Source: Patescibacteria group bacterium
GTDB lineage: Bacteria; Patescibacteriota; Microgenomatia; Curtissbacterales; GWA2-41-24
DNA: 60,124 nucleotides
Assembly: GCA_038063735.1 (NCBI GenBank)
Contig: JBBTUN010000010.1
Coordinates: 1-60,124 of the forward strand
Reading direction: 5' to 3'
In this document: positions 4,615 through 21,159 of the stretch, in pieces
How the letters are laid out: the number at the start of each line of letters is the position of its first letter
Numbering within the stretch: position 1 is the stretch's first letter
Notes under the pieces: generated by a model
Told to the model about the DNA's origin: nothing
The model's database searches: none
Seen by the model: only the letters and a program-made list of their open reading frames with translations
Program-made: the position numbers and the translations under genes

Positions 4615-5517
4615 ATGAACAAAAGAAAGTTTAAATTGTTTTTACCCGCTTTGGCAGGAATTCTTCTGTTTATTTTTCTTGCGTCAAGTGTGAACATTCC
4701 GGTTTTTGCAAATGAAGCGTCCCCTTCGGCTGCGACATCTTTGGGGTCAATTACCGTTTGCAAGGTAGTTGTGGGTGAAGATGGCAATATAGTTGATGGT
4801 TCCGCTAGTCCCGGCACTACTTTTTCTATTTCTGGAATCAACCCGTCTCCCAATTCCGGCGGTGCATCGGTAGGTGTAATTGGAACCTCAGTATTTACAT
4901 CGCCACTTATATTTAATAAAGATATATTCGCATCTTTTTTGGGAAATGATGCCCAGTGCACGACTTATTCTGGTCTTGCCATTGGTGCTTACTACTATGG
5001 TGAGGAATCTATAGTCCCCGCAAGCGGTTGGGAAGAGCCCAAATACAACGATCAATTTACCACACCGGTAGTGACACTCTCGGATTTTTTCGCATATGAC
5101 AATAATCTATTCGATGGCAACACGTTAAATGACGACTTACGAAATCGGAATGCAGATGGCCACATAGTACTCAACGACCAGAGGCCAGACAGAACCCTGA
5201 TTGTTCTAAATCAATTTGAAGAGGACGGTGCTAATACCGGTGACCCAAGCCCATCACCATCACCAACACCAAGCCCAACACCTGGACCATCAACCCAACC
5301 GTCGCCTACATCTGCACCAAGTCCGTCAACAGGCGGATCTGGTAACACCAATAGCAATAGTTCAGGCGGTGGCACAGTTTTGGGTACATCAACAGGACCA
5401 CAAGTTTTGGCAGCAACCGGGAGTTCTAACTCGTTTGCTTTGGCAATATCGGGATTTGGTATGATTGGGGCAGGAATATGGCAGTTAAAAAGGGTAAAGG
5501 GCCTAGGGTCAAGGTAA
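4615..5517 (+). CDS. sortase-anchored surface protein (LAXTG-type sorting signal)
   Basis: Signal peptide (MNKRKFKLFLPALAGILLFIFLASSVNIPVFA) and a Pro/Ser/Thr linker. The C-terminus is 'LAATG' followed by a hydrophobic stretch and then 'KRVKGLGSR'. A sortase gene lies immediately downstream. Confidence 0.75.
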   Translation: MNKRKFKLFLPALAGILLFIFLASSVNIPVFANEASPSAATSLGSITVCKVVVGEDGNIVDGSASPGTTFSISGINPSPNSGGASVGVIGTSVFTSPLIFNKDIFASFLGNDAQCTTYSGLAIGAYYYGEESIVPASGWEEPKYNDQFTTPVVTLSDFFAYDNNLFDGNTLNDDLRNRNADGHIVLNDQRPDRTLIVLNQFEEDGANTGDPSPSPSPTPSPTPGPSTQPSPTSAPSPSTGGSGNTNSNSSGGGTVLGTSTGPQVLAATGSSNSFALAISGFGMIGAGIWQLKRVKGLGSR

Positions 5518-6113
5518 AAAGTAGGAATCGAAGAGTTCACAGTTCACAGTTGACAGTTCACGGTTTCAGAGCAAAACTTCAGTTTGTTTTTTCCATTTTT
5601 TTGATTTTGCTGGGGGTGGTACTGGTTGGTTACGCGGCGAGTAAAAACTTTGATTTTAATATCCAGCGGTCTAACAATCCGACAACTCAACAACCTGTTA
5701 CAACCAGGACTCAGTTTAGCAAAATAAAATCAATAAGTATTCCTAAGATAGAGCGCGATTTGGCAGTTTCCGACGGCAAGTTTGAAAATGGTAGGTGGGA
5801 AGTTGCTGCGGAAGGAGTGTCTTTTTATACACAATCTGCTTTGCCTGAAGCTGGTGGCAATACGGTTTTGTATGGGCACAACAAGGCGCGAATTTTGGGA
5901 GGACTTGTAGATATGAGGAAAGGTGACATGATCGAATTGAGACTTGAGAATGGAGAATTAAGAAATTATGAGGTCACCGAAACAAAAACGATAAAACCAA
6001 CAGACGTTAGTATATTGAGTACATCTACCGATACAATTTTAACAATTTACACTTGTAGTGGATTTTTGGACACTTCGAGGTTTGTAGTGTTGGCAAAACT
6101 AGTAGTAGAGTGA
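5478..6113 (+). CDS. sortase (transpeptidase)
   Basis: Motifs 'NTVLYGHN', 'ILTIYTCSG' (TLxTC) and 'SRFVV', plus an N-terminal TM helix. The start is uncertain because the first ~30 codons run through an AGTTCAC heptamer array and overlap the upstream gene by 40 nt. Confidence 0.8.
   Translation: MAVKKGKGPRVKVKSRNRRVHSSQLTVHGFRAKLQFVFSIFLILLGVVLVGYAASKNFDFNIQRSNNPTTQQPVTTRTQFSKIKSISIPKIERDLAVSDGKFENGRWEVAAEGVSFYTQSALPEAGGNTVLYGHNKARILGGLVDMRKGDMIELRLENGELRNYEVTETKTIKPTDVSILSTSTDTILTIYTCSGFLDTSRFVVLAKLVVE
5534..5568 (+). repeat. heptamer array (AGTTCAC AGTTCAC AGTTGAC AGTTCAC GGTTTCA)
   Basis: Direct reading of 5534-5568. It lies inside the annotated 5' end of the sortase ORF. Confidence 0.9.
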
Positions 6114-6173
6114 TGGAAAAATAACCCATAAAAGTTCAATTGGCCTCAGTCAAATTTCTTAACAAAAAATTGC

Positions 6174-6202
6174 TTGACATTATTTTCGATAAGGAATATA
6201 TT
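6174..6202 (+). promoter_or_regulatory. sigma70-like promoter (TTGACA, 17 nt spacer, TATATT)
   Basis: TTGACA at 6174-6179 and TATATT at 6197-6202, upstream of the ATG at 6242. Confidence 0.45.
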
Positions 6203-6241
6203 CACGTTGTTTCGTAGTTGCCTGCCCGGTAGTTAATTATT

Positions 6242-6499
6242 ATGAACCAACCGGATCAGGACTTTTCGACTCAAAAAATTACACCCCAGCTCATCTCAAG
6301 GATCATAGATGCTCTTCATAACAAAGCTTATGGTTCTATAGAAATTTACGTTGAGAATTATAATGTTATACAAATAACAGAAAGAACCATAACCAAGCTC
6401 GCCAAAAAAGTTGAACCCAGAAAGTTTTCGATATCTGTAACCAGAAATGCGCCACCGCAGATACAAGGGCAACAGCAGAGTTCGGCACGGGTTGAATAG
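6242..6499 (+). CDS. small YezD/DUF2292-like protein
   Basis: 85 aa. 'YGSIEIYVENYNVIQITERTITKL' matches the YezD-type motif (GS-[IV]-x-[IV]-x-[IV]-x-x-G-x-[IV]-x-x-[IV]-E). Confidence 0.5.
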   Translation: MNQPDQDFSTQKITPQLISRIIDALHNKAYGSIEIYVENYNVIQITERTITKLAKKVEPRKFSISVTRNAPPQIQGQQQSSARVE

Positions 6500-6527
6500 G
6501 GCAAAGAGAACTGAAATTTATCCTGAG

Positions 6528-7148
6528 ATGCAAAAAAAATTACTGCCGATCATTCTGATAATATTACCTTTAGTATTTTTTGTTCCAGTTGTTTTTGCTT
6601 CTTCTTTGCAGGTTTCCAAGAGCTCCGGTTTTTCCAGTAGTGATACGAATTTCAATGCCGGGGAAAAAGTGTACACCAGAACAGCAAGCGATAGTTCCGG
6701 CAACGGTAAAAAGGTCCTGAATATACGGGATAATCAATATAACTTAATAAGGAGCGTGGACCTGGTTCAAGCCGGTAACAATTTTTCTGCAAACTTCGAT
6801 GCGCCGAGTTCTGAAGGATATTACTCGCTCGAGGCGGTAATAGAAGGAGAGGGCGCCAGTTCCAAAAGTGTGAAGACAATAAAAGTTGGAGGTCCAAGTG
6901 GCGCCAATATTAAGGTAAACGTAAATAGCAATGTGAAGGGGACGAGTGTATCAAATGTATCAGATGTACCAAAAGTATCGAAAGCGGAGTCAGATAATGA
7001 TAAAGATGTCCAGGCAAATACCGTAAGCCCGGCTCCGGAAGTATATAGCAGCCAAAGCAGTTTGACCGGTGAGATAAAGCCCGCGAAAAGCAATTGGTTT
7101 TTCAAATTTTTTACCAATATCTTTTCTTTCTTCTGGCCCTTCAAGTAA
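6528..7148 (+). CDS. secreted/surface protein, unknown function
   Basis: The internal ATG at 6528 gives a classical signal peptide, MQKKLLPIILIILPLVFFVPVVFASS. The longer ORF from 6447 would overlap the previous gene. Confidence 0.55.
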   Translation: MQKKLLPIILIILPLVFFVPVVFASSLQVSKSSGFSSSDTNFNAGEKVYTRTASDSSGNGKKVLNIRDNQYNLIRSVDLVQAGNNFSANFDAPSSEGYYSLEAVIEGEGASSKSVKTIKVGGPSGANIKVNVNSNVKGTSVSNVSDVPKVSKAESDNDKDVQANTVSPAPEVYSSQSSLTGEIKPAKSNWFFKFFTNIFSFFWPFK

Positions 7149-7230
7149 TTTTAAATTTTAAATTTGTAATTTATTACCTGTGATAATTTAATCTTCTAAT
7201 TTATCCTTTTGATACATTAAAGTAGAGGTC

Positions 7231-7258
7231 TTGACAAAAAAAACATGGTGTTTATAAT
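7231..7258 (+). promoter_or_regulatory. sigma70-like promoter (TTGACA, 16 nt spacer, TATAAT)
   Basis: TTGACA at 7231-7236 and TATAAT at 7253-7258, upstream of the ATG at 7304. Confidence 0.55.
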
Positions 7259-7303
7259 AGCCGAACTGCCTGTGCTTCTGCCTAAATTCTTGCCCAGAGA
7301 TTA

Positions 7304-8143
7304 ATGATTGAAACTCAAACGGACAAACCGAGCGTGACATTTACGATTCCTTCCTGGATCTTGGCAATTGGAAAATTTGTTGATTATGCTGCTAAGACTG
7401 CCTCTCTCGGTACAAAAGCTGCGGTTGAGGGAATCAGGGGCGCAGGACAATCTGACAGGGAGGGGACCGATGAGACAAAACCCGTGGAAGATAAAGCAAC
7501 GCCCCCCAGGAAATTTAATTTTCATTTTAAAAAAGTTAACTTTAATTTCTTGAAAAAGTTAAGGCTGGAAAAAATTAAAGGAATTAAAGCACCATTTAAA
7601 AAACACCCAAAAATTGCAATAGCAGTTTTGGTGTTTATTTTGGCGGTAGTGTTTGCCACATTCAAAATTGCAAAGCCCAGCCAATCCGTTAGCAACAGTA
7701 TAGACAGTATAACTTCCGGTATTAATTCATTGGCAAAAGTAAATGTAAATAGAAAGTTCGAAGTACCTATAAAAAACAAGGACGGTTCGGAAACGGGAGA
7801 GAAGTTGGGGATTACAATAACTACCATTGAAAAGACTAACGAGATTCTAATTAAGAACAGTCCGGCAAAAACAAAAAACGGAAAGATTTTCTTGGTCCTT
7901 AATATAGAGATCCAGAATGACACCAAAAAACAATTAACTGTAAGGCCTGTGGATATGGTTAGGCTTATAGGTGACGACGGGCGTAGTTATGCTCCGGACG
8001 TTCACAATAACGAAGTTTCGGCTGAACCAGTATCGCTGAGAAAAACCAGAGTTGGATATGTTGTTGACGGAAGCAAAAATAGCTTCAAACTTTTGGTGGG
8101 TGAGGTTAGGGGACAGCAGGAACCGATCGAAGTTAGTTTTTAG
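7304..8143 (+). CDS. membrane-anchored protein with a DUF4352-like C-terminal beta domain
   Basis: Central TM helix (IAIAVLVFILAVVFATF). The C-terminal 'KIFLVLNIEIQNDTKKQLTVRPVDMVRLIGDDGRSYAP' resembles DUF4352. Confidence 0.45.
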   Translation: MIETQTDKPSVTFTIPSWILAIGKFVDYAAKTASLGTKAAVEGIRGAGQSDREGTDETKPVEDKATPPRKFNFHFKKVNFNFLKKLRLEKIKGIKAPFKKHPKIAIAVLVFILAVVFATFKIAKPSQSVSNSIDSITSGINSLAKVNVNRKFEVPIKNKDGSETGEKLGITITTIEKTNEILIKNSPAKTKNGKIFLVLNIEIQNDTKKQLTVRPVDMVRLIGDDGRSYAPDVHNNEVSAEPVSLRKTRVGYVVDGSKNSFKLLVGEVRGQQEPIEVSF

Positions 8144-8147
8144 TTGA

Positions 8148-8176
8148 TTGACAAAGTAGTTTTTTGTCTGTAGACT
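8148..8176 (+). promoter_or_regulatory. candidate promoter (TTGACA, 17 nt spacer, TAGACT)
   Basis: TTGACA at 8148-8153 and TAGACT at 8171-8176. Confidence 0.35.
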
Positions 8177-8258
8177 AATTTTTAAGTTAACTGTCCGCAG
8201 GCTGGAGCTGTATAAAGTAAAGATTCTGCCCAAAACAAAATAGAATATAACCGACCGC

Positions 8259-8310
8259 AAACGGAGGTTCGTTTCTAAGTTATAAAACTTAGTGATGAAC
8301 CTCCGTTTTT
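8259..8310 (+). terminator. intrinsic-terminator-like hairpin in the leader of the repeat-protein gene
   Basis: The perfect 12-bp arms aaacggaggttc (8259-8270) and gaacctccgttt (8297-8308) enclose an inner ctaagt/acttag stem. A T-run ends at 8310, 44 nt before the ATG at 8354. Confidence 0.55.
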
Positions 8311-8353
8311 GTATAAGAAAAACGGGAAAAGTATGAAAGGAGGTGAAAAAAAT

Positions 8354-9577
8354 ATGAACAAAATTGCAATTAAACTTGCAACTGCTGTTTCTACAGGTGC
8401 CTTGGTAGTTTCTTCATTTGCAACTCCACTTCTGGCTACAACGGTTGAAATTTCTGGTAACGGTTCTGACAGTGACAACACTGTTGAAGTTAATCAAACC
8501 AATACAACAGCTGTTAATCAAAGCAACACAGCTAATATCTCCAACAACATTGACGTTGACGTAGATACCGGAGACAACGATGCAAACGACAACACAGGTG
8601 GCGATGTTTCAATCGACACAGGTGATGCCAATGCAACTGTTGGAGTTTCCACAACGGTAAACTCAAACCAGGCGAGCGTTAACGGATGTTGCCCAGATGA
8701 CGTTACTTTGAAAATAAAAGGTAACGGATCTGACAGCGGGAACAATGATGAGAACAAAATTAAGTTCAATTCAACAAACGCCAATGTTATAAGTCAAGAC
8801 AATAATGCAAACGTTAACAACGATGTCGATTTAGATCTCGACACAGGTTATAACGATGCAAACGACAACACAGGTGGCGATGTTTCCGTAACGACTGGTG
8901 ATGCTGATGCAACTGTTACTGTAAGTAACAATGCAAACGCAAATTGGGCGGCCGTAACCGGCGGCGGTAGCGGCGGCGGACTGGCTGTTGAAATTTCTGG
9001 TAACGGTTCTGACAGTGACAACACTGTTGAGGTCGGTTTGACAACCGTTAACACGATCAACCAGTCAAACAATGCTGATATCTCCAACAACATCGATGTC
9101 GATGCTGATACCGGAGACAACGATGCAAATGACAACACAGGTGGCGATGTTTCAATCGACACAGGTGATGCCAATGCAGACGTTGATGTCAGTAATATGG
9201 CTAACTTTAATGCAGCAGAACTAGCAGGATGTGGTTGTGTTGAAGATCTCGACGTACTTGTAAAAGGAAACGGGACAGACAGTGACAACACTGTTAAGCT
9301 CAACCTTGGATCAATTCTGGCAGCCGTTCAGACTAACTCATTTGATAATGGGGAAAAGTGTGACGGCATTGATGTTGACCTTGACACCGGTGGTAACGAT
9401 GCCAAAGACAACACTCACGGCGGTGATCCATCCATCACTACTGGTGATGCTGATGCAGACGTAGATGTAGAGAACACTGCAAACTCTAACGTACTTGGAG
9501 ATGTGGATTTTGATCTTCCAACGCAAGAAGGAAGCTCTATGTCTGTTCTTTTAATACTTTTGGCTCTTCTGGGTTAA
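8354..9577 (+). CDS. secreted Asn/Asp/Thr-rich 'GNGSDS...NTGGD...TGDA' repeat protein (4 modules)
   Basis: The ATG at 8354 is preceded by AAAGGAGGTG. A signal peptide is present. Four modules of about 95 aa carry motifs such as 'N-x-A-x-[IV]-x-N-x-[IV]-D-x-D-x-DTG-x-NDA-x-DNTGGDVS-x-x-TGDA-x-A-x-V', and Cys clusters separate the modules. The C-terminal tail is hydrophobic. Confidence 0.7.
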   Translation: MNKIAIKLATAVSTGALVVSSFATPLLATTVEISGNGSDSDNTVEVNQTNTTAVNQSNTANISNNIDVDVDTGDNDANDNTGGDVSIDTGDANATVGVSTTVNSNQASVNGCCPDDVTLKIKGNGSDSGNNDENKIKFNSTNANVISQDNNANVNNDVDLDLDTGYNDANDNTGGDVSVTTGDADATVTVSNNANANWAAVTGGGSGGGLAVEISGNGSDSDNTVEVGLTTVNTINQSNNADISNNIDVDADTGDNDANDNTGGDVSIDTGDANADVDVSNMANFNAAELAGCGCVEDLDVLVKGNGTDSDNTVKLNLGSILAAVQTNSFDNGEKCDGIDVDLDTGGNDAKDNTHGGDPSITTGDADADVDVENTANSNVLGDVDFDLPTQEGSSMSVLLILLALLG

Positions 9578-9789
9578 AAGTAATTCCTGATTTCTTGGAG
9601 GGCTACCTTTCGGTAGGATCACTCTTACAAAAGGGTAAGCCCCCAAGAAAGATGGAAAGTAATGGATAGCAGTTGGTAGCAGGTAGCTGGTAGATAGTGA
9701 TAACAAAAAATAGTATTCGAGCTTGTCGAGAATTACAAAAAAAAGAAGAAGTTCTCGATCAACTCGAACAATAAAATAAGTAGATATAA

Positions 9790-11985
9790 ATGAATAAATT
9801 TAAAAGAAGCATAGTTTCAATATTTCTGGCAATAAGCTTGGTTATCAATCCAAGCTCTATGGTTTTTGCCGGGAATGACCCGGGACTTGATGCTCCATCA
9901 GTTTCTGAGGTTACACCAACTCCCGAACCGTCGCCTTCTTCAAGTCCGGAGATTACTTCCACACCCTCACCAACTCCGGTATCAACCAGTGACGGACCAA
10001 CCAATTATGATCCAAACGACAGGGATGGTGATGAAGAAACTCTTGAGGAAGACGCTATTCATGATGCAGAAAGAGAGGCAAGGTGGCAGGAATACCAGGC
10101 TTGGTTGGCAACCCAAGGACCAGGAGACCAGGAATCGACCGGTGGAGTTGACGGCGGCGGCAACGTCGGTGACACCAGTATTCAAACGGGAGACGCCAAT
10201 GCAAACGGGGTACTGGTCACCAGTGCCAATACAACAGCTGTCTCTACGGATGATCCTACTTGCGGAGCGTGTGCCACAGACACGAGCGTCACAAATAGCC
10301 AGAACGGATCCGGGTCGGATAATGCGGCAACAGTTAACAATAATAATAATTCAACGGTTGTCATAGACAATGACGCAAATGTACAAAATAATCTTGATTT
10401 TGATGCAAACAGCGGAAACAACGATGCATCGGCAAACGTCGGTGACAGCGAGATTATTACAGGAGATGCCAATGTGGTAGTTACGGTAATTACAGACGCA
10501 AACCAGGTTGCACTTGGTGTTTACCAGTTTGATGTTAACGGAAACCAGAATGGCGACATAATCCTCGATCCGGGGAGCTTGATTGCACAAAATATCGGCA
10601 ACGGATCCGGTTCGACAAATGATTCCACAATAAATAATAACAATACTAGCGTAGAAACTATAAATAACGACGGAGAAATTATTAATAATATTGATATTGA
10701 TGCGAATACGGGTTACAACACAGCCAGTAAAAATACGGGTGGCGACAGCATAATTGAAACAGGCGACGCAAGTGTTGTTGCAAATGTAATCAATTCGCTA
10801 AATACGGTGGTTGACGGGGCACTAAATGTTGTAAACATATTTGGGGATATGGTTGGAAATATTGTACAGCCACAAGCACCGGTTCAATCGACTGCAACTT
10901 CCGCTTGTGGATGCGGACCATGCTCTTCTAGTGCAACAGCCGGAAATTTAGGGAATGGGAGCGACTCAGAAAACAATGCAACCGTTAATAGTACAAACAC
11001 AGATACGACAAATATGACCAATAATGCGACGGTTGAAAATAATTTGGATCTTGACGGCAATACGGGCGGGAACACTACGAGCTTTAACACAGGTGGTGAA
11101 AGCTCTATAGAAACAGGGGAAGTTGAAGTTAAGGCAAATGTTGTAAACGTTGCAAACATAAACGTTTCCAGCGGCGACTGCAGCCCGGTTTACATGGTCT
11201 TTATCAATGACGTTTCCGGAAACTGGAAGGGGCAAATTTTGGGCGCAGCGCCGGGTACGTATTTTTACACATCCAGTGGAGAATTCTATTTTATAGACAG
11301 TAATGGCCAGTTGGTAGCCGTAAACCAAAATAACGGAGCAGATTCTACTAACAATGCAACTGTTAATAATACAAATACAACTACAACAAATATCACCAAT
11401 AACGGAACTGTCACTAATAATATAAATATTGACGCAAATACGGGTAACAATGAGGCGAGTAAGAATACAGGGGGAAATTCCGATATTTCCACCGGAGACG
11501 CGAACATTGCAGTAAACGTTATTAACTTTATAAATTCGAATTTTTCCGGCCGTAAAGTTGTGATGACACTAGTCAACGTTTTCGGGTCCTGGCTAGGTAA
11601 TTTTGTACCGGCCGGATACGCCGGGGACATTCCAAATCCGCAGGCGCAGGCAACAGGTGGATCAGATTCATCAAGTTCCAGCTCTTCTGGTGGCTCTTCC
11701 GGCATAAATAGTAACGGCGGCGGGATAAACACAGTTGTTATCGGTGGTCAGACGTTGTCTGCATCAGATAATAATATTGCCCGTTTTGGTGAGGAGAATG
11801 AGTTAGCAGATGCGTTTGTTGGTGGACAGCAGGAACCAATAATTGCAAAATACAAAGCCTTAAATAGCCTTGAAAGAACAGGCATTCCTGTTCCACTTAG
11901 AATACTCTTAATTATGGCCCCGCTCGCTTTGGGCACATATCTGCTGAGAAGGAAATTAGCCTCAATAGCACTAAAAAGCAAGTAA
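9790..11985 (+). CDS. large surface repeat protein of the same NTGG/TGDA family, with an LxxTG-type anchor
   Basis: 731 aa with a signal peptide and a PT-rich linker. At least 5 'NTGG-x-S-x-I-x-TGDA' modules are present. The C-terminus is 'LERTG', then a hydrophobic helix, then 'RRK'. Confidence 0.7.
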   Translation: MNKFKRSIVSIFLAISLVINPSSMVFAGNDPGLDAPSVSEVTPTPEPSPSSSPEITSTPSPTPVSTSDGPTNYDPNDRDGDEETLEEDAIHDAEREARWQEYQAWLATQGPGDQESTGGVDGGGNVGDTSIQTGDANANGVLVTSANTTAVSTDDPTCGACATDTSVTNSQNGSGSDNAATVNNNNNSTVVIDNDANVQNNLDFDANSGNNDASANVGDSEIITGDANVVVTVITDANQVALGVYQFDVNGNQNGDIILDPGSLIAQNIGNGSGSTNDSTINNNNTSVETINNDGEIINNIDIDANTGYNTASKNTGGDSIIETGDASVVANVINSLNTVVDGALNVVNIFGDMVGNIVQPQAPVQSTATSACGCGPCSSSATAGNLGNGSDSENNATVNSTNTDTTNMTNNATVENNLDLDGNTGGNTTSFNTGGESSIETGEVEVKANVVNVANINVSSGDCSPVYMVFINDVSGNWKGQILGAAPGTYFYTSSGEFYFIDSNGQLVAVNQNNGADSTNNATVNNTNTTTTNITNNGTVTNNINIDANTGNNEASKNTGGNSDISTGDANIAVNVINFINSNFSGRKVVMTLVNVFGSWLGNFVPAGYAGDIPNPQAQATGGSDSSSSSSSGGSSGINSNGGGINTVVIGGQTLSASDNNIARFGEENELADAFVGGQQEPIIAKYKALNSLERTGIPVPLRILLIMAPLALGTYLLRRKLASIALKSK

Positions 11986-12255
11986 TAAATCATCTTTTGC
12001 CATTGTTTGATTTTAAGAAGACCTCTTTGTCCCAGTTGACATAAATCTGCAGTTAAATTAAGTTATAAAAACGGAATTAGGACAAATTCCCCCAAGTTAC
12101 TTTTTTTAATATGAACTGCCCAAATTGCTACTTTTTGGCCGATAACTTTATCGTTAATTATTTTAATTTTGATATTAAAACGTACCTTTTTGGTACAGAT
12201 TCGTATGGATGCCCGCGCGACCTTTGGCGGGTGAAGAAGGGAGGTGATAAAAATA

Positions 12256-12846
12256 ATGAAATTAACTTATAAAATTGGAACAGGTATTGCTACTGCAGCT
12301 TTATTTGCAAGTGCTTTTGCTCCGGCAATAATGGCAGACAATACAATTACAGAAAACGGTGCCGGATCGACCAACACAATTTCTGTTACAAACACTTGTT
12401 CCGCAACTGTAGTCCAGGCTAACGATTCTGATATTTCCGTTAAAGTAAAACAAACCGCAAATACCGGTGGCAATGAAGCCAATAAAAATACCGGTGGCGA
12501 TGTTTCTATTTTAACCGGAGATGTAAGTCAAACGGCATCAGTATCTATTGCTGGTTCTACAAACACGGCTGTTGCTCCTAGCTGCTGTGGATGTGAACAA
12601 GTTACACCGGCCGCAGATATTAGCCTAAATGGCGCAGATACGACAAACGCTGTTGTTACAAACACAGTTAAACTGACGAGCGCAACTCAGGCTAATAAAA
12701 CTAAAGTCAAAGCAAGAATAAAACAGAAGGCTAAGACTGGAAAGAATAAGGCCAACGAAAACACCAATGGAGTTGTTGATGTTACAACCGGTGGTGTTAC
12801 AGGTGTTGTAGGTGTTGCAGTAAGCGCACCCTCTAACACACTTTGA
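12256..12846 (+). CDS. short secreted NTGG/TGD repeat protein (2 modules)
   Basis: The ATG at 12256 follows GGGAGGTG. Signal peptide MKLTYKIGTGIATAALFASAFAPAIMA. Motifs 'NTGGNEANKNTGGDVSILTGDV' and 'SCCGCE' are present. Confidence 0.65.
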   Translation: MKLTYKIGTGIATAALFASAFAPAIMADNTITENGAGSTNTISVTNTCSATVVQANDSDISVKVKQTANTGGNEANKNTGGDVSILTGDVSQTASVSIAGSTNTAVAPSCCGCEQVTPAADISLNGADTTNAVVTNTVKLTSATQANKTKVKARIKQKAKTGKNKANENTNGVVDVTTGGVTGVVGVAVSAPSNTL

Positions 12847-12931
12847 TGTAGTTAGATAAGCGATTCTTAGGTTAATATTAGTTAAACTTAAGAATAACGG
12901 ATTACTCAGGAAGAGGATCCAAAACCAAAAT

Positions 12932-12957
12932 GCCCCTGCCCAACGCCGGGGCTTTTT
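12932..12957 (+). terminator. weak intrinsic terminator candidate
   Basis: gcccc (12932-12936) pairs with ggggc (12948-12952), followed by TTTTT. Confidence 0.35.
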
Positions 12958-13010
12958 GGTGGAAAAGAACAATCTAGCAATAGAGCAGTGTAACGATGTA
13001 ATATTGTACT

Positions 13011-14054
13011 GTGATCCACAAAAAAATAATTCACCATGTCAGACACTTCCATCATCACTTTTTACCCCACAACCATGTTGATGGGAGAGAACATAGTGCC
13101 CACGCTCTTTCTGTTGTAGCTCTTTCTGTATATTTTTCGGTTTTTGTACTTAGCAGTGTCGGATTTTATTTTATAAAGGCAAATGCCCCGCAAATTTTGG
13201 GTGCTGTCACTTTTTCTGCAGATCAAATTATTTCGCTTACAAACGCAAAAAGGGCCCAAAACGGGTTGGGGGCGGTTACTTTTAACCCACTACTTGCGCA
13301 AGCGGCAACGCAGAAGGCTAGTAATATGTTTTCGGAAAATTATTGGGCGCACAATTCTCCCAGCGGCAGGACTCCGTGGAGCTTTATTTCTGCTGCCGGT
13401 TATAAATATGTTTATGCGGGGGAGAACCTGGCGCGGGATTTTTCTGACGCGTCGTCGGTTGTCAATGCCTGGATGAATTCGCCTTCGCATAGAAGCAATT
13501 TGCTAGACAAAAACTTTAAGGAAATTGGTGTTGCCGTTGCCGATGGCAATTTAACAGGTAACAGCGGGATACTGGTGGTGCAAATGTTCGGGACACCGAC
13601 GTCTCAGATTCCAACGACACCTACTTTGGCCCTAGCATCGCCTGCGCCCTCGCCAAGCATTGCACCCGCATCGCGCGTGCCTGCGGCGAGCCCTGCGGTT
13701 GCACAAGCGCTACAATCGCCTTTGCCATCCCCGAGTCCTGTGCTTGAGGTTGCTCAGGCCTCTCCCACTCCAGCTCCAACAAGTGTGACTATTGCTCAAA
13801 CCGACGACGTGATTACGCCGACTTCCCAAGCTAACACAAGTGAAGCAAGAGTACTTGCGAGCCGTCAGTTTTCGATTGCCCGCGGGATATCTTTTGGCTT
13901 AATTGCTTTTATATTCTTAATGTTTGTTGCCGAAGTGATATTTGTTGCAAAACGCGAGAATTTACACTTGAGAAGCGGAATTTTTGCTCACCTTGGCTTG
14001 TTGGCATTCGTCTTGATTGTAATTTGGTATGCTGTTTCCGGAGCAATCCTTTGA
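13011..14054 (+). CDS. CAP/SCP (YkwD-like) domain protein with a Pro/Ser/Ala linker and a C-terminal membrane anchor
   Basis: 'NAKRAQNGL...YWAHNSPSGRTPWSFI...GENLA...AWMNSPSHRSNLL...FKEIGVAV' is a CAP-domain signature. TM segments lie at both ends. Confidence 0.7.
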   Translation: MIHKKIIHHVRHFHHHFLPHNHVDGREHSAHALSVVALSVYFSVFVLSSVGFYFIKANAPQILGAVTFSADQIISLTNAKRAQNGLGAVTFNPLLAQAATQKASNMFSENYWAHNSPSGRTPWSFISAAGYKYVYAGENLARDFSDASSVVNAWMNSPSHRSNLLDKNFKEIGVAVADGNLTGNSGILVVQMFGTPTSQIPTTPTLALASPAPSPSIAPASRVPAASPAVAQALQSPLPSPSPVLEVAQASPTPAPTSVTIAQTDDVITPTSQANTSEARVLASRQFSIARGISFGLIAFIFLMFVAEVIFVAKRENLHLRSGIFAHLGLLAFVLIVIWYAVSGAIL

Positions 14055-14162
14055 CAAAGTCAAAGGGAAATTTTTAATTTTAAATTAGAAATTTGAAATT
14101 AATTTAAAAAATTTAGTTTTAAAACATTAAAAATTATAAATTTAAAATTGTAAATTAAACAA

Positions 14163-14417
14163 ATGACTAAAAAACTCGATACAACCTGGCACTTGTTTTT
14201 GTATGCGGCGTTTTTGGTTGGGGCAGCTGCTGTTTATTTGTCGCGCTATGACTCTTACAGACAGTTTGTGGTACTCGCCCTGTTGGTTATTTTTTATATT
14301 GTTTGGGCTATTGCGTACCACCATGTTAAGGGGGACGTGACGAAGAAATTGTTTTTAGAATATCTTCTGATTGCGCTTATCGCCTTGGGGGCAGGGTATT
14401 TAGTTTTGATGAGTTGA
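14163..14417 (+). CDS. small integral membrane protein (3 TM)
   Basis: 84 aa, hydrophobic throughout, with no recognisable family. Confidence 0.45.
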   Translation: MTKKLDTTWHLFLYAAFLVGAAAVYLSRYDSYRQFVVLALLVIFYIVWAIAYHHVKGDVTKKLFLEYLLIALIALGAGYLVLMS

Positions 14418-15325: not shown

Positions 15326-15967
15326 TCACGGGTTGATGACGCAGTAGTTTCTATTACCGTTCCAAGCGTAGCTTGCGCCACACGGTGGGTTTGATGTTGG
15401 AACATTTTTATTATCTTGGTCTTTTGTGTTCTCTAGTGTGGCAGATATAACATAGGAATTATTTGGGCTTGAACTATCGTAATAGTAGTCTTGGGTTGTG
15501 GAACCAGAAAATGCAGGGTCTTTTGGCAATGGACTCATATATGTGACGGCTGGGGGATCTGGCGTTCCTGTTGCGTCACAAACAAAAACGGTTCCCCAGC
15601 TTTTTGCTGTTATGTCCCCGGTAACATTGCATTTAATTCTTCCAGCTTGCCCTGTGGTTTCGGTACTTGGGTATTTGCCGTTTTGTTGAAAGTATATTTC
15701 TAAAGCTTGCTGGACTGCTTTAAGATCGGATTTCCTTTTATTATCCCTGCCCTTCATCTGCGCGTTTGTGTAGGAAACGGTGGCAACGGCCATTAAAATG
15801 GCGATTATGGAGATGACCACCAACAATTCAATCAGGGTAAACCCTGTTGAATTGCGGTTAATGGTTAATGGTTGATGGTTAATGGCTCTTTTTCTAAATC
15901 TATGAACTATGAACTGTGAACTATGAACTATCTCGGGCAAGGACATACTTTTATGATAGCAAGTCAA
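15326..15967 (-). CDS. type IV pilin-like protein (prepilin-type N-terminus)
   Basis: 'GFTLIELLVVISIIAILMAVATVSY' is a class III signal/pilin helix. The C-terminal Cys pair ends in 'NYCVINP'. The leader of about 40 aa is encoded by heptamer arrays. Confidence 0.8.
   Translation of the reverse strand: MTCYHKSMSLPEIVHSSQFIVHRFRKRAINHQPLTINRNSTGFTLIELLVVISIIAILMAVATVSYTNAQMKGRDNKRKSDLKAVQQALEIYFQQNGKYPSTETTGQAGRIKCNVTGDITAKSWGTVFVCDATGTPDPPAVTYMSPLPKDPAFSGSTTQDYYYDSSSPNNSYVISATLENTKDQDNKNVPTSNPPCGASYAWNGNRNYCVINP
15856..15930. repeat. heptamer arrays inside the pilin 5' region (TTAATGG family and ATGAACT family)
   Basis: 15856-15885 reads ggttaatggttaatggttgatggttaatgg. 15902-15930 reads atgaactatgaactgtgaactatgaacta. 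Confidence 0.9.
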
Positions 15968-16106: not shown

Positions 16107-17231
16107 ATGAAAAAGAGGTTGAAGGTCGGGACAAGATTGAGGCGGGTGAGAAAGTTGGAAACCAGGCACTTTATACTTGGGACTGCTCTTGTTTTCTCTT
16201 TAGGCGTTTTTGTGTTTTCTTTGTTAACAAGACAGGCTTTTGCGGCTGTTGCTGTAGTTTCCCCGTCTAATATGCAGGGTTGGGTATTTGAGGTTAACAG
16301 CCCGGATGGTATAGGAACATTTGTTGCAGGCCCCGCTACTCCGCCAGGCGGAATTGGCAGTGTGCGTTTATTTACGGGAACAAATGGGACTTTAGCAATT
16401 GCTTTTCATAACATTTCTTATGCAAGCCTTAAGTTGAGCGATATCACTAAATTAGATTATTCAACTTACGCACAAACAATCAGTGCTAACTATCCGAGGT
16501 TAATAATGGATGTTACCACCGAGTTTGGGACAGATACTCTTTATTTTGATCCTACAGCGCAAAGTCAAGCAGCTGCTAAAAATGTATGGCAAAACTGGAA
16601 TGCTAAAGATGGCAATTGGACGGCATCATTATTTCCAGGATTTACGGGCGGGACTCTTTCACAGTATGTTACTTATGTAGGTGGATTTTCTTCCCAAAAT
16701 GTCACTGTTATTAACAGGCCAGATACGACTGGAGGTTTGAGAATGGAAATTGGTCCAGGTTCGGCAGGTGATGTATTTGACGGGAACGTGGACAACTTTA
16801 CCATTGGTATTTTGGGTGTTGACATGACTTATGATTTTGAGCCGGATGTGGCACCGACGCCTATACCTACACCTTCGCCAAGCCTCAGTCCAAGCCCTAC
16901 ACCTATACCTACACCTTCTCCGAGCGTCAGTCCAAGCGCAAGTCCTGCACCGAGTCCGACGCCTCCACCGAAAGGTACGCCGCCTTGTTATTTCACAGAT
17001 TCTCAGGGGGCACAACGCGGATATGGGGATGTGAACAATAATAGAATTGTCAATGCAACTGATGCCATTCTAGTCTTAAGAAGCATTTTTGGAATTAATC
17101 CTGTCCTTACCGGTGACAACAAGAAAGCAGCGGATGTAAATGTTAATGGTAGAGTAAATGCTTCGGATGCCACTCTTATCTACCAATTTGTTTTTGGGAT
17201 CACAAATACCTTTAAGGCCTGTTCCAAATAG
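16107..17231 (+). CDS. secreted protein with an N-terminal beta-rich domain, a PT/PS linker and a C-terminal dockerin-like module
   Basis: Signal anchor present. The duplicated Ca-binding segments 'DVNNNRIVNATDAILVLRSIFG' and 'DVNVNGRVNASDATLIYQFVFG' resemble a type I dockerin. Confidence 0.65.
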   Translation: MKKRLKVGTRLRRVRKLETRHFILGTALVFSLGVFVFSLLTRQAFAAVAVVSPSNMQGWVFEVNSPDGIGTFVAGPATPPGGIGSVRLFTGTNGTLAIAFHNISYASLKLSDITKLDYSTYAQTISANYPRLIMDVTTEFGTDTLYFDPTAQSQAAAKNVWQNWNAKDGNWTASLFPGFTGGTLSQYVTYVGGFSSQNVTVINRPDTTGGLRMEIGPGSAGDVFDGNVDNFTIGILGVDMTYDFEPDVAPTPIPTPSPSLSPSPTPIPTPSPSVSPSASPAPSPTPPPKGTPPCYFTDSQGAQRGYGDVNNNRIVNATDAILVLRSIFGINPVLTGDNKKAADVNVNGRVNASDATLIYQFVFGITNTFKACSK

Positions 17232-17290: not shown

Positions 17291-17319
17291 TTGACATTTG
17301 GGGGGTTTTAAGATATATT
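17291..17319 (+). promoter_or_regulatory. sigma70-like promoter (TTGACA, 17 nt spacer, TATATT)
   Basis: TTGACA at 17291-17296 and TATATT at 17314-17319, 15 nt upstream of the ATG at 17334. The TTG start at 17298 used by the ORF track lies immediately after the -35 box, inside this promoter. Confidence 0.55.
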
Positions 17320-17333
17320 TGCACAACTTGAAA

Positions 17334-19106: not shown

Positions 19107-19345
19107 GAAGTTATCCTTTTTAAATATTTGGTATAATCTTCTAATAAATTTTTAATTTTTAGTTTTAAATTTTCATACAAATCTAAATTCTTTAATTTTT
19201 AAACGTTAAGACATTTAAAATTCATTTAGAGTTTAGAATTGTGTCGTCGGAGTGTACTGTATCCGCCGACGCTATATCCTACGCTAAAGCTACGGATATC
19301 AAGAAAGCTTTGGTGGACAGGTCGGTAACTGTATCAAATGATTAT

Positions 19346-19418
19346 CGGGGATTAGCTCAGTTGGTAGAGCGCGTCGTTCGGGACGGCGAGGCCCGCGGTT
19401 CGAATCCGCGATCCCCGA
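19346..19418 (+). tRNA. tRNA-Pro (anticodon CGG)
   Basis: The cloverleaf was folded by hand: CGGGGAT/ATCCCCG acceptor, GCTC/GAGC D-stem, anticodon loop TTCGGGA, T-arm CGCGG-TTCGAAT-CCGCG. No CCA is encoded. Confidence 0.85.
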
Positions 19419-19491
19419 CCCTTCGCCCAATTTGACAGCACAACAATTTGACAGCTAAATAGGTAGAGCGGTAAGCTGTAAGTAGCTGCCC

Positions 19492-20183: not shown

Positions 20184-20255
20184 GCCCCTGTAGCTCAATG
20201 GATAGAGCATGGACGTCCTAAGTCTGGGATGGGGGTTCGATTCCCTTCAGGGGCA
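20184..20255 (+). tRNA. tRNA-Arg (anticodon CCU)
   Basis: GCCCCTG/CAGGGGC acceptor, GCTC/GAGC D-stem, anticodon loop GTCCTAA, T-loop TTCGATT. The anticodon and T stems contain some G-U pairs. Confidence 0.75.
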
Positions 20256-20256
20256 C

Positions 20257-20401: not shown

Positions 20402-21079
20402 ATGACTTATACGCTGGATAAAAGAATTTTATTAGTAAGAACAATAGGAAATTTTTTGGTTTTGGGCACAATTATTTCCATAGGTTTTACCTTTTGGCCC
20501 ATTATGTCAACCGTTGCCAGGCACAATATAGAAAAGTGGCAGGGGAAGAAGTTTGAGGCTTCTGCGCTTGCCACAGCCAGCAGCCAATCTTTTGGCTCAC
20601 TTCTTGGCAAAAGCGACGAGAACATAAAAATACTTGTTCCAAAGGACCCTAACTTTTCCATTATCGTTGAGAAAATTGGTGCGGATGCGACAATTGTGCC
20701 TAATGTAGATGCTTCCAATAAGGAAATCTATACCGCGGCATTAAGAAGGGGAGTTGCCCATGCGCTGGGTACTTCGTTTCCAGGTCAGCCCGGTGTGACA
20801 TATTTGTTTGCACACTCGACAGATACGATATTTAACGTTCCAAGGTATAACGCAGTTTTTTACCTTCTAAACGATTTGACGCCGGGGGACAGGGTGGTCA
20901 TATTTTTCAATAACAAACGCTACGATTATGCGGTTTCCGAGAAAAAAATCACCGAACCGGAAGATGTGGGGTATTTTACTTTAAAGACAACTGAGCAAAT
21001 ACTTGTTTTGCAGACATGTTATCCACCGGGAACCACCTGGAAAAGGCTTTTGGTGGTGGCAAAGCCGGTGAGTAGTTGA
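20402..21079 (+). CDS. sortase (second copy)
   Basis: 'VTYLFAHS', 'ILVLQTCYPPGT' (TLxTC-type motif) and 'KRLLVV', plus an N-terminal TM helix. Confidence 0.75.
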   Translation: MTYTLDKRILLVRTIGNFLVLGTIISIGFTFWPIMSTVARHNIEKWQGKKFEASALATASSQSFGSLLGKSDENIKILVPKDPNFSIIVEKIGADATIVPNVDASNKEIYTAALRRGVAHALGTSFPGQPGVTYLFAHSTDTIFNVPRYNAVFYLLNDLTPGDRVVIFFNNKRYDYAVSEKKITEPEDVGYFTLKTTEQILVLQTCYPPGTTWKRLLVVAKPVSS

Positions 21080-21159
21080 TGGTTCATGGTTCGTGGTTCG
21101 TAGTTCGTAGTTCATGGTTCATGGTTGGTGGTAGCTATGCTCTACGAACTATGAACTAT
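21073..21159. repeat. inverted heptamer arrays between convergent genes (terminator-like hairpin)
   Basis: 21073-21133 reads tagttgatggttcatggttcgtggttcgtagttcgtagttcatggttcatggttggtggtag. 21141-21159 reads tctacgaactatgaactat, in the complementary sense. The arrays overlap both stop codons. Confidence 0.8.

What the first reader, a model, noticed from the sequence alone, without database searches (positions are those of the whole stretch)
4615..12846. Surface-protein island with a dedicated sortase and non-LPXTG sorting motifs
The protein at 4615-5517 ends with 'LAATG', a hydrophobic helix and a basic tail. A sortase gene (5478-6113) follows it and overlaps it. LAXTG is the motif recognised by class E sortases in Actinobacteria.

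The 731-aa repeat protein (9790-11985) ends with 'LERTG', a hydrophobic helix and 'RRK'. The 8354-9577 protein ends with 'LPTQEG..SVLLILLALLG' and has no basic tail.

A second sortase lies at 20402-21079.

All eight genes from 4615 to 12846 are on the same strand and encode secreted or membrane-anchored proteins. This suggests wall anchoring or polymerisation of fibre-like proteins in an organism whose envelope is poorly understood.
Basis: partly seen in the sequence, partly recalled or inferred. Interest (0 to 1): 0.65.

Follow-up and report, generated by a model that had tools for sequence, protein, structure and literature searches.

The report
CPR sortase paired with LAxTG protein

Summary
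Only one of the three C-terminal motifs holds up in comparison with relatives.

**What holds.** The 300-aa protein (4615-5517) ends in LAATG, a hydrophobic stretch and a basic tail. It overlaps a true sortase (5478-6113) by 40 nt. Among 76 distinct relatives of this sortase with readable upstream DNA, 69 have a same-strand gene just upstream ending in L-A-x-T-G plus hydrophobic stretch plus K/R tail. The second motif position is Ala in 62 of 69 and Pro in 2.

**Sortase class.** The sortase reaches no curated class threshold (A-F); class D scores best. The family is specific to the Candidate Phyla Radiation (CPR) and has about 500 clusters at 50% identity.

**What fails.**
- LERTG in the 731-aa protein occurs in 1 of 112 orthologs. 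What is conserved is a C-terminal membrane helix plus basic tail.
- LPTQEG in the 407-aa protein occurs in 0 of 119 orthologs. What is conserved is a short hydrophobic end.

**Second sortase.** The sortase at 20402-21079 belongs to a different family. In five related loci that family sits beside LPxTG proteins.

**The repeat proteins.** The three Asn/Asp/Gly-rich proteins form a large CPR-only family with no Pfam or PDB match. Their cluster lies next to a sortase in several other lineages. The system is a new variant of a known kind.

The parts
4615..5517 (+). Sortase substrate, 300 aa. It has a signal peptide (aa 1-32), a passenger domain of about 170 aa with no Pfam or PDB match, and a Pro/Ser/Thr-rich linker. 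The sorting signal is LAATG (aa 265-269, nt 5407-5421), a hydrophobic stretch (aa 274-291, nt 5434-5487) and the basic tail KRVKGLGSR (nt 5488-5514).
   Evidence: sequence; 69 of 76 related sortases have such a gene upstream; no family or structure match
5478..6113 (+). Sortase 1, 211 aa. It has a basic cytoplasmic N-terminus, a membrane helix (aa 34-54) and an extracellular catalytic domain with His134, Cys193 and Arg201 (motifs LYGHN, TIYTCSGFLD, RFVV). Tyr117 follows GVSF. The gene overlaps the substrate gene by 40 nt.
   Evidence: Pfam 84.7 bits; invariant H, C, R in 26 sequences; model at pLDDT 80, Foldseek probability 1.0 to sortases of classes C, A, E and D alike; no class cut-off reached
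6242..6499 (+). Small 85-aa protein with no signal peptide or membrane helix. It is DUF2292-like and is a constant member of the repeat-protein cluster in relatives.
   Evidence: DUF2292, weak match; no hydrophobic segment; orthologs in L001-L015, L160, L161, L163
6528..7148 (+). Secreted 206-aa protein with a conserved aromatic C-terminus (WFFKFFTNIFSFFWPFK). The start is corrected from 6447.
7304..8143 (+). Membrane protein of 279 aa. It has a cytoplasmic N-terminus, one membrane helix (about aa 98-116) and an extracellular DUF4352 domain.
   Evidence: a perfect sigma-70-like consensus lies at 7231-7258
8354..9577 (+). Repeat protein of 407 aa. It has a signal peptide and four units of about 90 aa (GNGSDS...TGDNDANDNTGGD...TGDA.A.V.V), with 15% Asn and 14% Asp and Cys pairs between units. 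It ends in an acidic/aromatic stretch and an 11-aa hydrophobic tail with no basic tail. LPTQEG (nt 9515-9532) is not conserved.
   Evidence: model (pLDDT 77, all-beta with strands up to 30 residues); no PDB match
9790..11985 (+). Repeat protein of 731 aa from the same family. It has a signal peptide, a Pro/Ser/Thr-rich stretch, about five degenerate units, and a C-terminal membrane helix (aa 699-719) followed by RRK. LERTG (nt 11869-11883) is unique to this window.
   Evidence: 103 of 112 orthologs keep helix plus basic tail; only the window has LxxTG before it
12256..12846 (+). Short secreted member of the repeat family (about 196 aa, one unit plus a Lys-rich half). It has no anchor of any kind.
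13011..14054 (+). Membrane protein with an extracellular CAP/YkwD domain and C-terminal membrane helices. In other Microgenomates its ortholog directly follows the sortase.
   Evidence: 18 of 66 loci have the ortholog downstream of the sortase, 7 of them within 72 nt
14163..14417 (+). 84-aa protein with two membrane helices (DUF5656 in relatives). It always follows the CAP gene.
20402..21079 (+). Sortase 2, 225 aa. It has an N-terminal membrane helix, His138, Cys206 and Arg215 (motifs LFAHS, LQTCYPPGT, KRLLV), and Ala121 at the position where sortase 1 has Tyr117. No substrate gene lies beside it here.
   Evidence: 73 close relatives, none with an adjacent substrate; more distant members sit next to LPxTG proteins

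Best explanation
**Organism.** The window comes from a CPR bacterium of the Microgenomates group. Its nearest named relatives are Curtissbacteria.

**The two-gene module (4615-5517 and 5478-6113).**
1. The 300-aa protein is exported by its signal peptide.
2. It is held in the membrane by its C-terminal hydrophobic stretch and basic tail.
3. The membrane-bound sortase encoded by the overlapping gene cleaves it within LAATG, between Thr and Gly.
4. The Thr carboxyl is joined to an amine outside the cell, most likely on the peptidoglycan precursor.

Steps 1-4 are inferred from the known sortase mechanism. What is shown here is the enzyme family, the intact catalytic residues, the three-part signal, and the conserved pairing of this sortase family with LAxTG proteins.

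**The downstream genes (6242-12846).** They form a separate conserved cluster for a CPR-only family of Asn/Asp/Gly-rich beta-repeat surface proteins. In this genome none of them is a sortase substrate.
- The 731-aa member is anchored by a C-terminal membrane helix.
- The 407-aa member ends in a short hydrophobic peptide of unknown role.
- The 200-aa member is freely secreted.

**Link between sortase and repeat cluster.** In sister lineages the LAxTG protein is itself a one-unit member of the repeat family. In more distant lineages a repeat paralog with LPxTG plus a sortase of the second type closes the cluster. The repeat structure and sortase anchoring are therefore probably linked functionally.

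**Sortase 2 (20402-21079).** It is the LPxTG-type enzyme. Its substrates lie outside this window.
For: **The enzyme**
- Sortase 1 passes the Pfam Sortase and TIGR01076 cut-offs.
- His134, Cys193 and Arg201 are invariant in 26 family members.
- The model folds as a sortase barrel behind an N-terminal helix.

**The pairing**
- 69 of 76 distinct family members with upstream DNA have a same-strand gene ending in the signal. In 67 of them the gap is -81 to +135 nt.
- Motif counts: position 1 Leu 66/69, position 2 Ala 62/69 (Gly 5, Pro 2), position 4 Thr 67/69, position 5 Gly 69/69.
- Only 3 other ORFs of 1750 match the pattern, and all 3 are real substrates.
- The passenger domains differ while the signal is kept.

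**A possible specificity determinant**
- PMC5148588 names the site equivalent to S. aureus SrtA Ala104 and S. coelicolor SrtE1 Tyr229 as a determinant for Ala in the motif.
- At that site sortase 1 has Tyr117 and sortase 2 has Ala121.

**A wall is present**
- The window also encodes MreB, an SLT transglycosylase, an M23 peptidase and a WecG/TagA transferase.

**The repeat cluster**
- Synteny is kept in L001-L015.
- Starting from four distant homologs of the 407-aa protein, three loci again contain a sortase in the cluster, preceded by a repeat paralog with LPATG, LPSTG or LSAAAG.

**The rejected motifs**
- LERTG: 1 of 112 orthologs.
- LPxTG in the 407-aa family: 0 of 119.
Against: - No biochemical evidence exists. 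The cleavage site, the acceptor and the specificity are all inferred.
- Tyr117 is not general. Most family members have Leu at that position (GVSYL) and still pair with LAxTG, so it cannot be the sole determinant.
- Strong promoter-like sites lie before 6242, 7304 and 8354. The sortase pair and the repeat genes may therefore be separate transcription units.
- Only 9 of 50 sortase-1 loci with at least 7 kb of DNA downstream of the sortase hold the repeat cluster.
- The link between the second sortase type and LPxTG rests on five loci.
- The peptidoglycan chemistry of this lineage is unknown.
Confidence: 0.7

Rival explanations
1. Sortase 1 is a pilus-type polymerase. It joins copies of the adjacent LAATG protein head to tail through a lysine. 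Sortase 2 acts as the housekeeping enzyme that fixes the polymer to the wall.
For: - The sortase is encoded beside its substrate, as pilus sortases are.
- There are two sortases of different families in one genome.
- In L011, L017, L019 and L022 a tandem paralog of the substrate carries a second signal, QP[ED]TG, which recalls major and minor pilins.
- A W..PKYNDQF motif containing Lys is shared by most of these paralogs.
- Class C structures are among the best Foldseek matches.
Against: - The class C model scores 44 bits against a cut-off of 160.
- The linker before the catalytic domain has no DP[FWY] lid motif and is predicted to be disordered.
- The Lys of PKYNDQF is Leu in two paralogs.
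- In most Microgenomates the substrate is a single 180-220 aa Cys-containing domain, with only one substrate gene.
- This window has one substrate gene only.
Confidence: 0.12
2. Sortase 1 transfers the LAATG protein to an acceptor other than peptidoglycan, such as an amine on one of the repeat proteins, a glycopolymer or a lipid. The protein would then become the covalent base or cap of the repeat-protein structure.
For: - The sortase pair and the repeat cluster are neighbours in several lineages.
- In L001 and L015 the substrate is itself a repeat unit.
- In L043, L161 and L162 a repeat paralog carries the signal.
- The envelope chemistry of CPR bacteria is unknown.
Against: - Known sortases outside pilus systems use lipid II cross-bridge amines (established knowledge).
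- Wall-building and wall-remodelling genes are present in the window.
- Most sortase-1 loci lack the repeat cluster within 10 kb.
Confidence: 0.13
3. LAATG, LERTG and LPTQEG are three non-canonical sorting motifs, and all three proteins are processed by the island's sortase.
For: - All three motifs are in the window sequence, each just before a hydrophobic C-terminus.
- The two closest orthologs of the 731-aa protein have similar strings, LEGTG and LEGRG.
Against: - LxxTG precedes the helix in only 1 of 112 orthologs of the 731-aa protein, while 103 keep the helix plus basic tail.
- The ortholog at 79% identity has LEGRG, which lacks the Thr.
- None of 119 orthologs of the 407-aa protein has LPxTG, only 2 have any K/R near the end, and the hydrophobic tail is only about 11 residues long.
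Confidence: 0.05

Closest known systems
Class E sortases with LAXTG substrates (Streptomyces coelicolor SrtE1/SrtE2 with the long chaplins ChpA-C; PMC5148588)
   Same: - The sorting signal has Ala instead of Pro at the second position.
- The enzyme is membrane-anchored with a basic cytoplasmic N-terminus.
- In the window's enzyme a Tyr sits at the site equivalent to SrtE1 Tyr229.
- By analogy only: a wall-anchored member of a family whose other members are secreted and may assemble on it, as long and short chaplins do.
   Different: - The class E model scores 39 bits against a cut-off of 160, and classes D and C score higher.
- Host phylum is CPR, not Actinobacteria.
- The sortase sits beside one dedicated substrate instead of serving many scattered ones.
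- Most family members have Leu, not Tyr, at the determinant site.
Dedicated sortase-substrate operons of classes B and D (S. aureus SrtB-IsdC; Bacillus anthracis SrtD/SrtC with BasH and BasI)
   Same: - The sortase gene is next to one or two substrates with a non-LPXTG motif.
- Class D models are the best-scoring class models for all 26 family members.
   Different: - The scores of 55-58 bits are far below the class D cut-offs of 140-165.
- The motif is LAxTG, not LPNTA or NPQTN.
Class C pilus sortases with SpaA-type pilins
   Same: - The enzyme and its substrate are adjacent.
- There is a second sortase elsewhere in the genome.
- Structural similarity is as high as to any other class.
   Different: - No lid motif.
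- No conserved pilin-motif lysine.
- Usually a single small substrate.
- The class C model scores 44 bits against a cut-off of 160.
Sortase family fam000526 of Meheust et al. 2019 (PMC6744442)
   Same: That paper already reports a sortase family in over half of CPR genomes that is near-ubiquitous in Microgenomates. The window's enzymes are very probably part of it.
   Different: The paper gives no substrates, motifs or sub-families. The LAxTG pairing, the split into two families and the repeat-protein cluster are not described there or in any other paper found.
Pam pili of CPR bacteria (bioRxiv 10.64898/2026.03.03.709456)
   Same: Both are CPR-only surface structures built from formerly hypothetical secreted proteins, and both include components anchored by a C-terminal membrane helix.
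   Different: - Pam pilins are Ig-like two-domain proteins joined by donor-strand exchange with chaperone-like helpers, and no sortase is involved.
- The repeat proteins here are predicted as long-stranded beta repeats and are not Ig-like.
Functional amyloid and beta-solenoid repeat proteins (curli CsgA, Pseudomonas FapC)
   Same: Both are secreted proteins built of imperfect Asn/Gln/Gly-rich strand-turn-strand units. FapC and CsgA appear among the weak Foldseek matches.
   Different: - No significant sequence or structure match: best E-value 0.026 with TM-score below 0.1.
- The units are about 90 aa, not about 20-35 aa.
- No curli or Fap export genes are present.

Membership tests
Sortase superfamily (Pfam PF04203, TIGR01076) | Profile score above the curated cut-off | tested here: met
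   Sortase 1 scores 84.7 against 26.6 (Pfam) and 51 against 39.35 (TIGR01076). Sortase 2 scores 74.4 against 26.6 and 40.8 against 39.35.
Sortase superfamily (Pfam PF04203, TIGR01076) | Catalytic His, Cys (TLxTC-like motif) and Arg | tested here: met
   His134, Cys193 (TIYTC) and Arg201 are invariant in 26 sequences. Sortase 2 has His138, Cys206 and Arg215.
Sortase superfamily (Pfam PF04203, TIGR01076) | Beta-barrel fold behind an N-terminal membrane anchor | tested here: met
   The model has mean pLDDT 80, a helix at aa 28-57 and eight strands. Foldseek gives probability 1.0 to more than 100 sortase chains.
Sortase superfamily (Pfam PF04203, TIGR01076) | Transpeptidase activity on a sorting signal | not testable with these tools
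   This needs an enzyme assay.
Class E sortase | NCBIfam class E model NF033747 at or above 160 bits | tested here: not met
   The window's enzyme scores 39.4 bits. The best E-value among 26 members is 6.6e-14, weaker than for classes D and C.
Class E sortase | Substrates carry LAXTG | tested here: met
   Shown by gene neighbourhood only. Ala is at motif position 2 in 62 of 69 adjacent substrates.
Class E sortase | Conserved Tyr in the beta3/beta4 loop (SrtE1 Tyr229) | tested here: inconclusive
   The window's enzyme has Tyr117 at the aligned site, judged from alignments with Listeria SrtA and sortase 2. Most family members have Leu there, preceded by Tyr or Phe. No structural superposition on a class E enzyme was examined residue by residue.
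Class A (housekeeping, LPXTG) sortase | LPXTG substrates scattered in the genome, and sequence grouping with SrtA | tested here: not met
   Pro is at motif position 2 in only 2 of 69 substrates, and the substrate is adjacent. No class A model appears among the NCBIfam matches. Listeria SrtA is the best PDB sequence match, but only at 6e-10 and about 30% identity.
Class C (pilus) sortase | Class C model at or above 160 bits, a lid with a DP[FWY] motif, and pilin substrates with a lysine motif | tested here: not met
   The score is 44.3 bits. There is no lid motif in aa 58-85. The candidate Lys is not conserved.
Class D sortase | Class D models at or above 140-165 bits | tested here: not met
   The scores are 57.9 and 55.1 bits. 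These are the best class models, but they are far below the cut-offs.
Three-part cell-wall sorting signal: protein 4615-5517 | A pentapeptide, a hydrophobic stretch and a basic tail at the C-terminus, kept in relatives | tested here: met
   The signal is LAATG, then 18 hydrophobic residues, then KRVKGLGSR. It is kept in 69 of 76 loci.
Three-part cell-wall sorting signal: protein 9790-11985 | Pentapeptide kept in orthologs | tested here: not met
   LxxTG lies before the helix only in the window's own protein, among 112 orthologs.
Three-part cell-wall sorting signal: protein 8354-9577 | A pentapeptide, a membrane-length hydrophobic stretch and a basic tail | tested here: not met
   None of 119 orthologs has LPxTG. 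The hydrophobic end is about 11 residues long. K/R occurs in the last 12 residues in 2 of 119.

The most novel reading that the evidence does not exclude
The conserved cluster is DUF4352 protein, DUF2292 protein, a repeat protein of about 410 aa, one of about 730 aa, a short repeat paralog, and a sortase. In this reading it builds a so far undescribed surface fibre or sheath specific to Microgenomates. The 730-aa protein would be its membrane foot. A sortase-linked subunit would tie it covalently to the wall. The secreted repeat proteins would stack on this base through their long Asn-rich beta strands. It would be a CPR counterpart of the chaplin or curli principle, using a new fold.
Probability: 0.3. 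Interest if true: 0.8.

Novelty: new variant of a known kind. Interest (0 to 1): 0.55.

Why it matters
CPR bacteria make up a large share of bacterial diversity, and most of those cultivated live attached to other cells. Their surface is almost uncharted. Sortases were already known to be near-universal in Microgenomates, but their targets were not.

This analysis contributes three things:
- **A testable rule.** One CPR sortase family goes with LAxTG proteins encoded next door, and a second family goes with LPxTG. The rule allows wall-anchored surface proteins to be predicted in thousands of uncultured genomes, where they are now labelled "hypothetical".
- **An enzyme for engineering.** It offers a compact sortase that probably prefers Ala over Pro, a property of interest for protein-ligation tools.
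- **A candidate surface structure.** It points to a very large, conserved family of repeat proteins with no known fold as a likely major surface component of these organisms.

Tried and rejected
- **Structure-based classification of sortase 1.** The model matches class C, A, E and D structures about equally well (E about 1e-9), so structure does not assign a class.
- **PDB and Pfam searches.** The 300-aa substrate gave only a low-complexity linker match. The 407-aa family gave nothing.
- **Substrate beside sortase 2.** 73 close relatives from metagenomes have no neighbouring gene with a sorting signal. Only more distant members do.
- **Pam pilus system.** I read the preprint describing it. It uses Ig-like pilins and no sortase, so I rejected it as an explanation.
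- **DNA-level tandem repeats in 8300-12900.** None were found. The repeats are old and visible only at the protein level.
- **Mobile island.** G+C content (0.42-0.44) matches the rest of the window. The cluster is syntenic with housekeeping neighbours in relatives. I rejected this idea.
- **Proper phylogeny with reference sortases of each class.** This could not be made because no reference sequences were available in the scripting environment. The curated class profile scores stand in for it.
Full report
**1. What is in the sequence**

The region 4615-14417 holds ten genes on the + strand.

- **Protein 4615-5517 (300 aa).** It has a signal peptide, a domain of about 170 aa with no family match, and a Pro/Ser/Thr-rich linker. 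It ends with LAATG (aa 265-269), 18 mostly hydrophobic residues and KRVKGLGSR.
- **Sortase 1 (5478-6113).** It starts 40 nt before the end of the previous gene. It matches Pfam Sortase at 84.7 bits against a cut-off of 26.6. It has a basic N-terminus, one membrane helix and the motifs LYGHN, TIYTCSGFLD and RFVV.
- **Protein 9790-11985 (731 aa).** It does end in LERTG, a hydrophobic helix and RRK.
- **Protein 8354-9577.** It does end in LPTQEG..SVLLILLALLG.
- **Sortase 2 (20402-21079).** It is a real sortase at 74.4 bits.

Two details of the finding need correcting.
- The 85-aa product of 6242-6499 has no hydrophobic segment and is not secreted.
- Three start codons move to match the orthologs: 6528, 8354 and about 12256.

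**2. The organism**

Relatives of sortase 1 among one genome per species are named Curtissbacteria, Chisholmbacteria, Levybacteria, Amesbacteria, Woesebacteria, Roizmanbacteria, Daviesbacteria or simply Microgenomates/Patescibacteria.

Many third-party assemblies in that list carry the title "uncultured Gammaproteobacteria". One of these records is the same contig as L003 (CAZBKB010000003.1), whose locus repeats the window's gene order. I therefore treat those titles as unreliable.

The window also encodes MreB, an SLT transglycosylase, an M23 peptidase, a WecG/TagA transferase and three type IV pilin-like proteins. A cell wall is therefore expected.

**3. The LAATG signal is real and conserved**

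I collected 80 loci around relatives of sortase 1, plus six from exact-protein look-ups. I called all ORFs and looked at the gene upstream of each distinct sortase.

- 84 distinct sortases were found, and 8 of them lie at a contig edge.
- Of the other 76, 69 have a same-strand gene ending in a pentapeptide, a hydrophobic stretch and a K/R tail.
- In 67 of these the gap to the sortase is between -81 and +135 nt, and overlaps of 39 nt are common.

| Motif position | Residue counts (of 69) |
|---|---|
| 1 | Leu 66 |
| 2 | Ala 62, Gly 5, Pro 2 |
| 3 | variable; Ser is commonest |
| 4 | Thr 67 |
| 5 | Gly 69 |

Several of the 7 "misses" are failures of my search pattern. L018 has QVLAASG and L041 has LAFTG.

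Across 1750 distinct ORFs of at least 90 aa in these loci, only three others match the pattern, and all three are plausible substrates.

The passenger domains differ:
- Most lineages have a 180-220 aa Cys-containing domain (FPxCxNPQG...QTNWW).
- The window shares another domain with L011, L016, L017, L019 and L022.
- L001/L002 and L015 have a single unit of the repeat family described in section 6.

A conserved signal on changing cargo, always next to the enzyme, is what a dedicated sortase-substrate pair should look like. Public records call these proteins "hypothetical", "Ig-like" or "fibronectin type-III domain-containing".

**4. The kind of sortase**

- Only the generic sortase model is passed.
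- The class models score far below their cut-offs of 140-166: D 55-58 bits, C 44, E 39, F 28.
- All 26 aligned family members show the same order.
- The best PDB sequence match is Listeria SrtA at 6e-10.
- The AlphaFold model (pLDDT 80) matches class C, A, E and D structures equally well.
- A profile search of 1.84 billion representatives finds about 500 clusters at E below 1e-30.

This is a sizeable CPR family outside the curated classes. It behaves like class E in its motif but is not a class E member.

Kattke et al. (PMC5148588) propose that a Tyr equivalent to SrtE1 Tyr229 and S. aureus SrtA Ala104 favours Ala in the motif.
- At that aligned site the window's sortase 1 has Tyr117 (GVSFY).
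- Sortase 2 has Ala121 (GVAHA).
- Most family members have GVSYL and still pair with LAxTG.

The Tyr is therefore suggestive for this genome only.

**5. The other two motifs fail**

*The 731-aa protein.* Among 112 full-length orthologs, 103 keep a C-terminal helix followed by basic residues. Only the window's own protein has LxxTG in front of it. The 79%-identical ortholog has LEGRG, others have DPFDFG, and distant ones have INLAW. This is a membrane anchor, not a sorting signal.

*The 407-aa protein.* Among 119 orthologs none has LPxTG and only 2 have K/R in the last 12 residues. What is conserved is an acidic/aromatic stretch (DFDFPELP) followed by about 11 hydrophobic residues (SLLLLLLALFS). 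That is too short for a membrane helix, and I cannot explain it.

**6. The repeat proteins and their link to sortases**

The 407-, 731- and 200-aa proteins are paralogs.
- They are built from units of about 90 aa (GNGSDS...TGDNDANDNTGGD..I.TGDA.A.V.V.N).
- They are rich in Asn and Asp and have Cys pairs between units.
- The 407-aa family has more than 1100 homologs, all unnamed and without Pfam domains, with a well-kept length of 405-430 aa.
- The model (pLDDT 77) is all-beta with strands up to 30 residues long.
- It has no significant PDB counterpart. The best match is FapC at E 0.026 with a TM-score below 0.1.

The gene order is kept in the window's clade: small DUF2292-like protein, 206-aa protein, DUF4352 protein, 407, 731, 200.

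I then started independently from four distant homologs of the 407-aa protein. Three loci again contain a sortase at the end of the cluster, and the gene before it is a repeat paralog with a sorting signal:

| Locus | Signal on the repeat paralog | Sortase beside it |
|---|---|---|
| L161 | LPATG | resembles the window's sortase 2 (TC.P.GT..KRLLV) |
| L162 | LPSTG (two genes) | resembles the window's sortase 2 |
| L043 | LPATG | resembles the window's sortase 2 |
| L160 | LSAAAG | resembles sortase 1 |

L160 also has an LPATG protein with SpaA domains beside a sortase of the second type. The fourth locus, L163, has no sortase within 10 kb. Instead it has Peptidase_M73 and Peptidase_S26 genes.

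Two conclusions follow.
- The two sortase families appear to divide the motifs between them: LAxTG for the first and LPxTG for the second. The second link rests on five loci.
- The repeat-protein structure is repeatedly tied to sortase anchoring, even though in this window none of its three members carries a signal.

**7. Caveats on the operon**

- Strong promoter-like sites precede 6242, 7304 (a perfect consensus) and 8354.
- Only 9 of 50 sortase-1 loci with at least 7 kb of DNA downstream of the sortase contain the repeat cluster.
- In 18 of 66 loci a CAP/YkwD membrane protein lies downstream of the sortase, with its small DUF5656 partner beside it in most. In 7 of these it follows within 72 nt.

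In the window's clade, the repeat genes therefore look inserted between the sortase and the CAP gene.

**8. What is known**

- Meheust et al. 2019 (PMC6744442) report a sortase family in over half of CPR genomes that is near-ubiquitous in Microgenomates.
- Other genome papers mention a sortase only in passing.
- No paper in the searched library describes the substrates or motifs.
- The recently described Pam pili of CPR bacteria are a different system without a sortase.

**9. Verdict**

The extension to LERTG and LPTQEG is wrong. The class E label does not apply. The fibre idea remains open.

I rate this a new variant of a known kind, of moderate interest. The untested upside lies in the repeat-protein cluster.

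Noticed in passing
window 16440-16739 and 17610-17909: A 300-nt direct repeat, 100% identical, lies inside two adjacent secreted paralogs (16107-17231 and 17298-19106). Both end in dockerin type I domains. The identity suggests recent duplication or gene conversion. No cohesin partner was seen in the window.
   Followed up: partly
window 9542-9574; orthologs P0058-P0177: The 407-aa repeat family ends in a conserved tail of about 11 hydrophobic residues (SLLLLLLALFS) after an acidic/aromatic stretch. It has no basic residues in 117 of 119 orthologs. The tail is too short for a membrane helix, and its role is unexplained.
   Followed up: partly
window 6528-7148: A secreted 206-aa protein has a conserved aromatic C-terminus (WFFKFFTNIFSFFWPFK). 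The same motif occurs in its orthologs in the L002 and L006 loci.
   Followed up: no
window 6242-6499; L160 9528-9731; L161 9483-9752; L163 8003-8251: A small DUF2292-like protein with no export signal is a constant member of the repeat-protein cluster across distant Microgenomates. It could be a cytoplasmic regulator or a chaperone.
   Followed up: partly
window 13011-14417; for example L077 444-1603: A CAP/YkwD-domain membrane protein with a two-helix DUF5656 partner directly follows sortase-1-type genes in other Microgenomates. This holds in 18 of 66 loci, 7 of them within 72 nt. In the window's clade the repeat genes sit in between.
   Followed up: partly
L011 7908-8963, L017 7874-8851, L019 1436-2764, L022 7468-8817: Tandem paralogs of the window's LAATG protein carry a different C-terminal signal: QP[ED]TG, a hydrophobic stretch and a long basic tail. 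They lie just upstream of the LA[KE]TG copy and the sortase.
   Followed up: no
L163 15038-17074: One distant repeat-protein cluster has no sortase within 10 kb. It has Peptidase_M73 (camelysin/TasA family) and Peptidase_S26 (signal peptidase) genes beside it, which hints at an alternative processing route.
   Followed up: no
window 15326-15967 (-), 53240-54697 (-), 54739-56742 (-): Three proteins have the type IV pilin N-terminal methylation motif. Two of them are unusually large (485 and 667 aa).
   Followed up: no
window 21156-22394 (-): A 412-aa membrane protein with a PEGA domain lies convergent to sortase 2. The sortase is also flanked upstream by tRNA-Pro (19345-19421) and tRNA-Arg (20184-20256).
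   Followed up: no
loci L007-L086 (record titles): Many third-party assembled genomes holding this CPR sortase family are titled "uncultured Gammaproteobacteria", and one is titled Bathyarchaeia. One such record is the same contig as L003 (CAZBKB010000003.1), whose locus repeats the window's gene order. The labels look like placeholders or binning errors.
   Followed up: partly
window 7231-7258 and 6174-6202: A perfect TTGACA-16-TATAAT site lies before the DUF4352 gene, and an 11/12 site lies before the DUF2292-like gene. They suggest internal promoters within the cluster.
   Followed up: no
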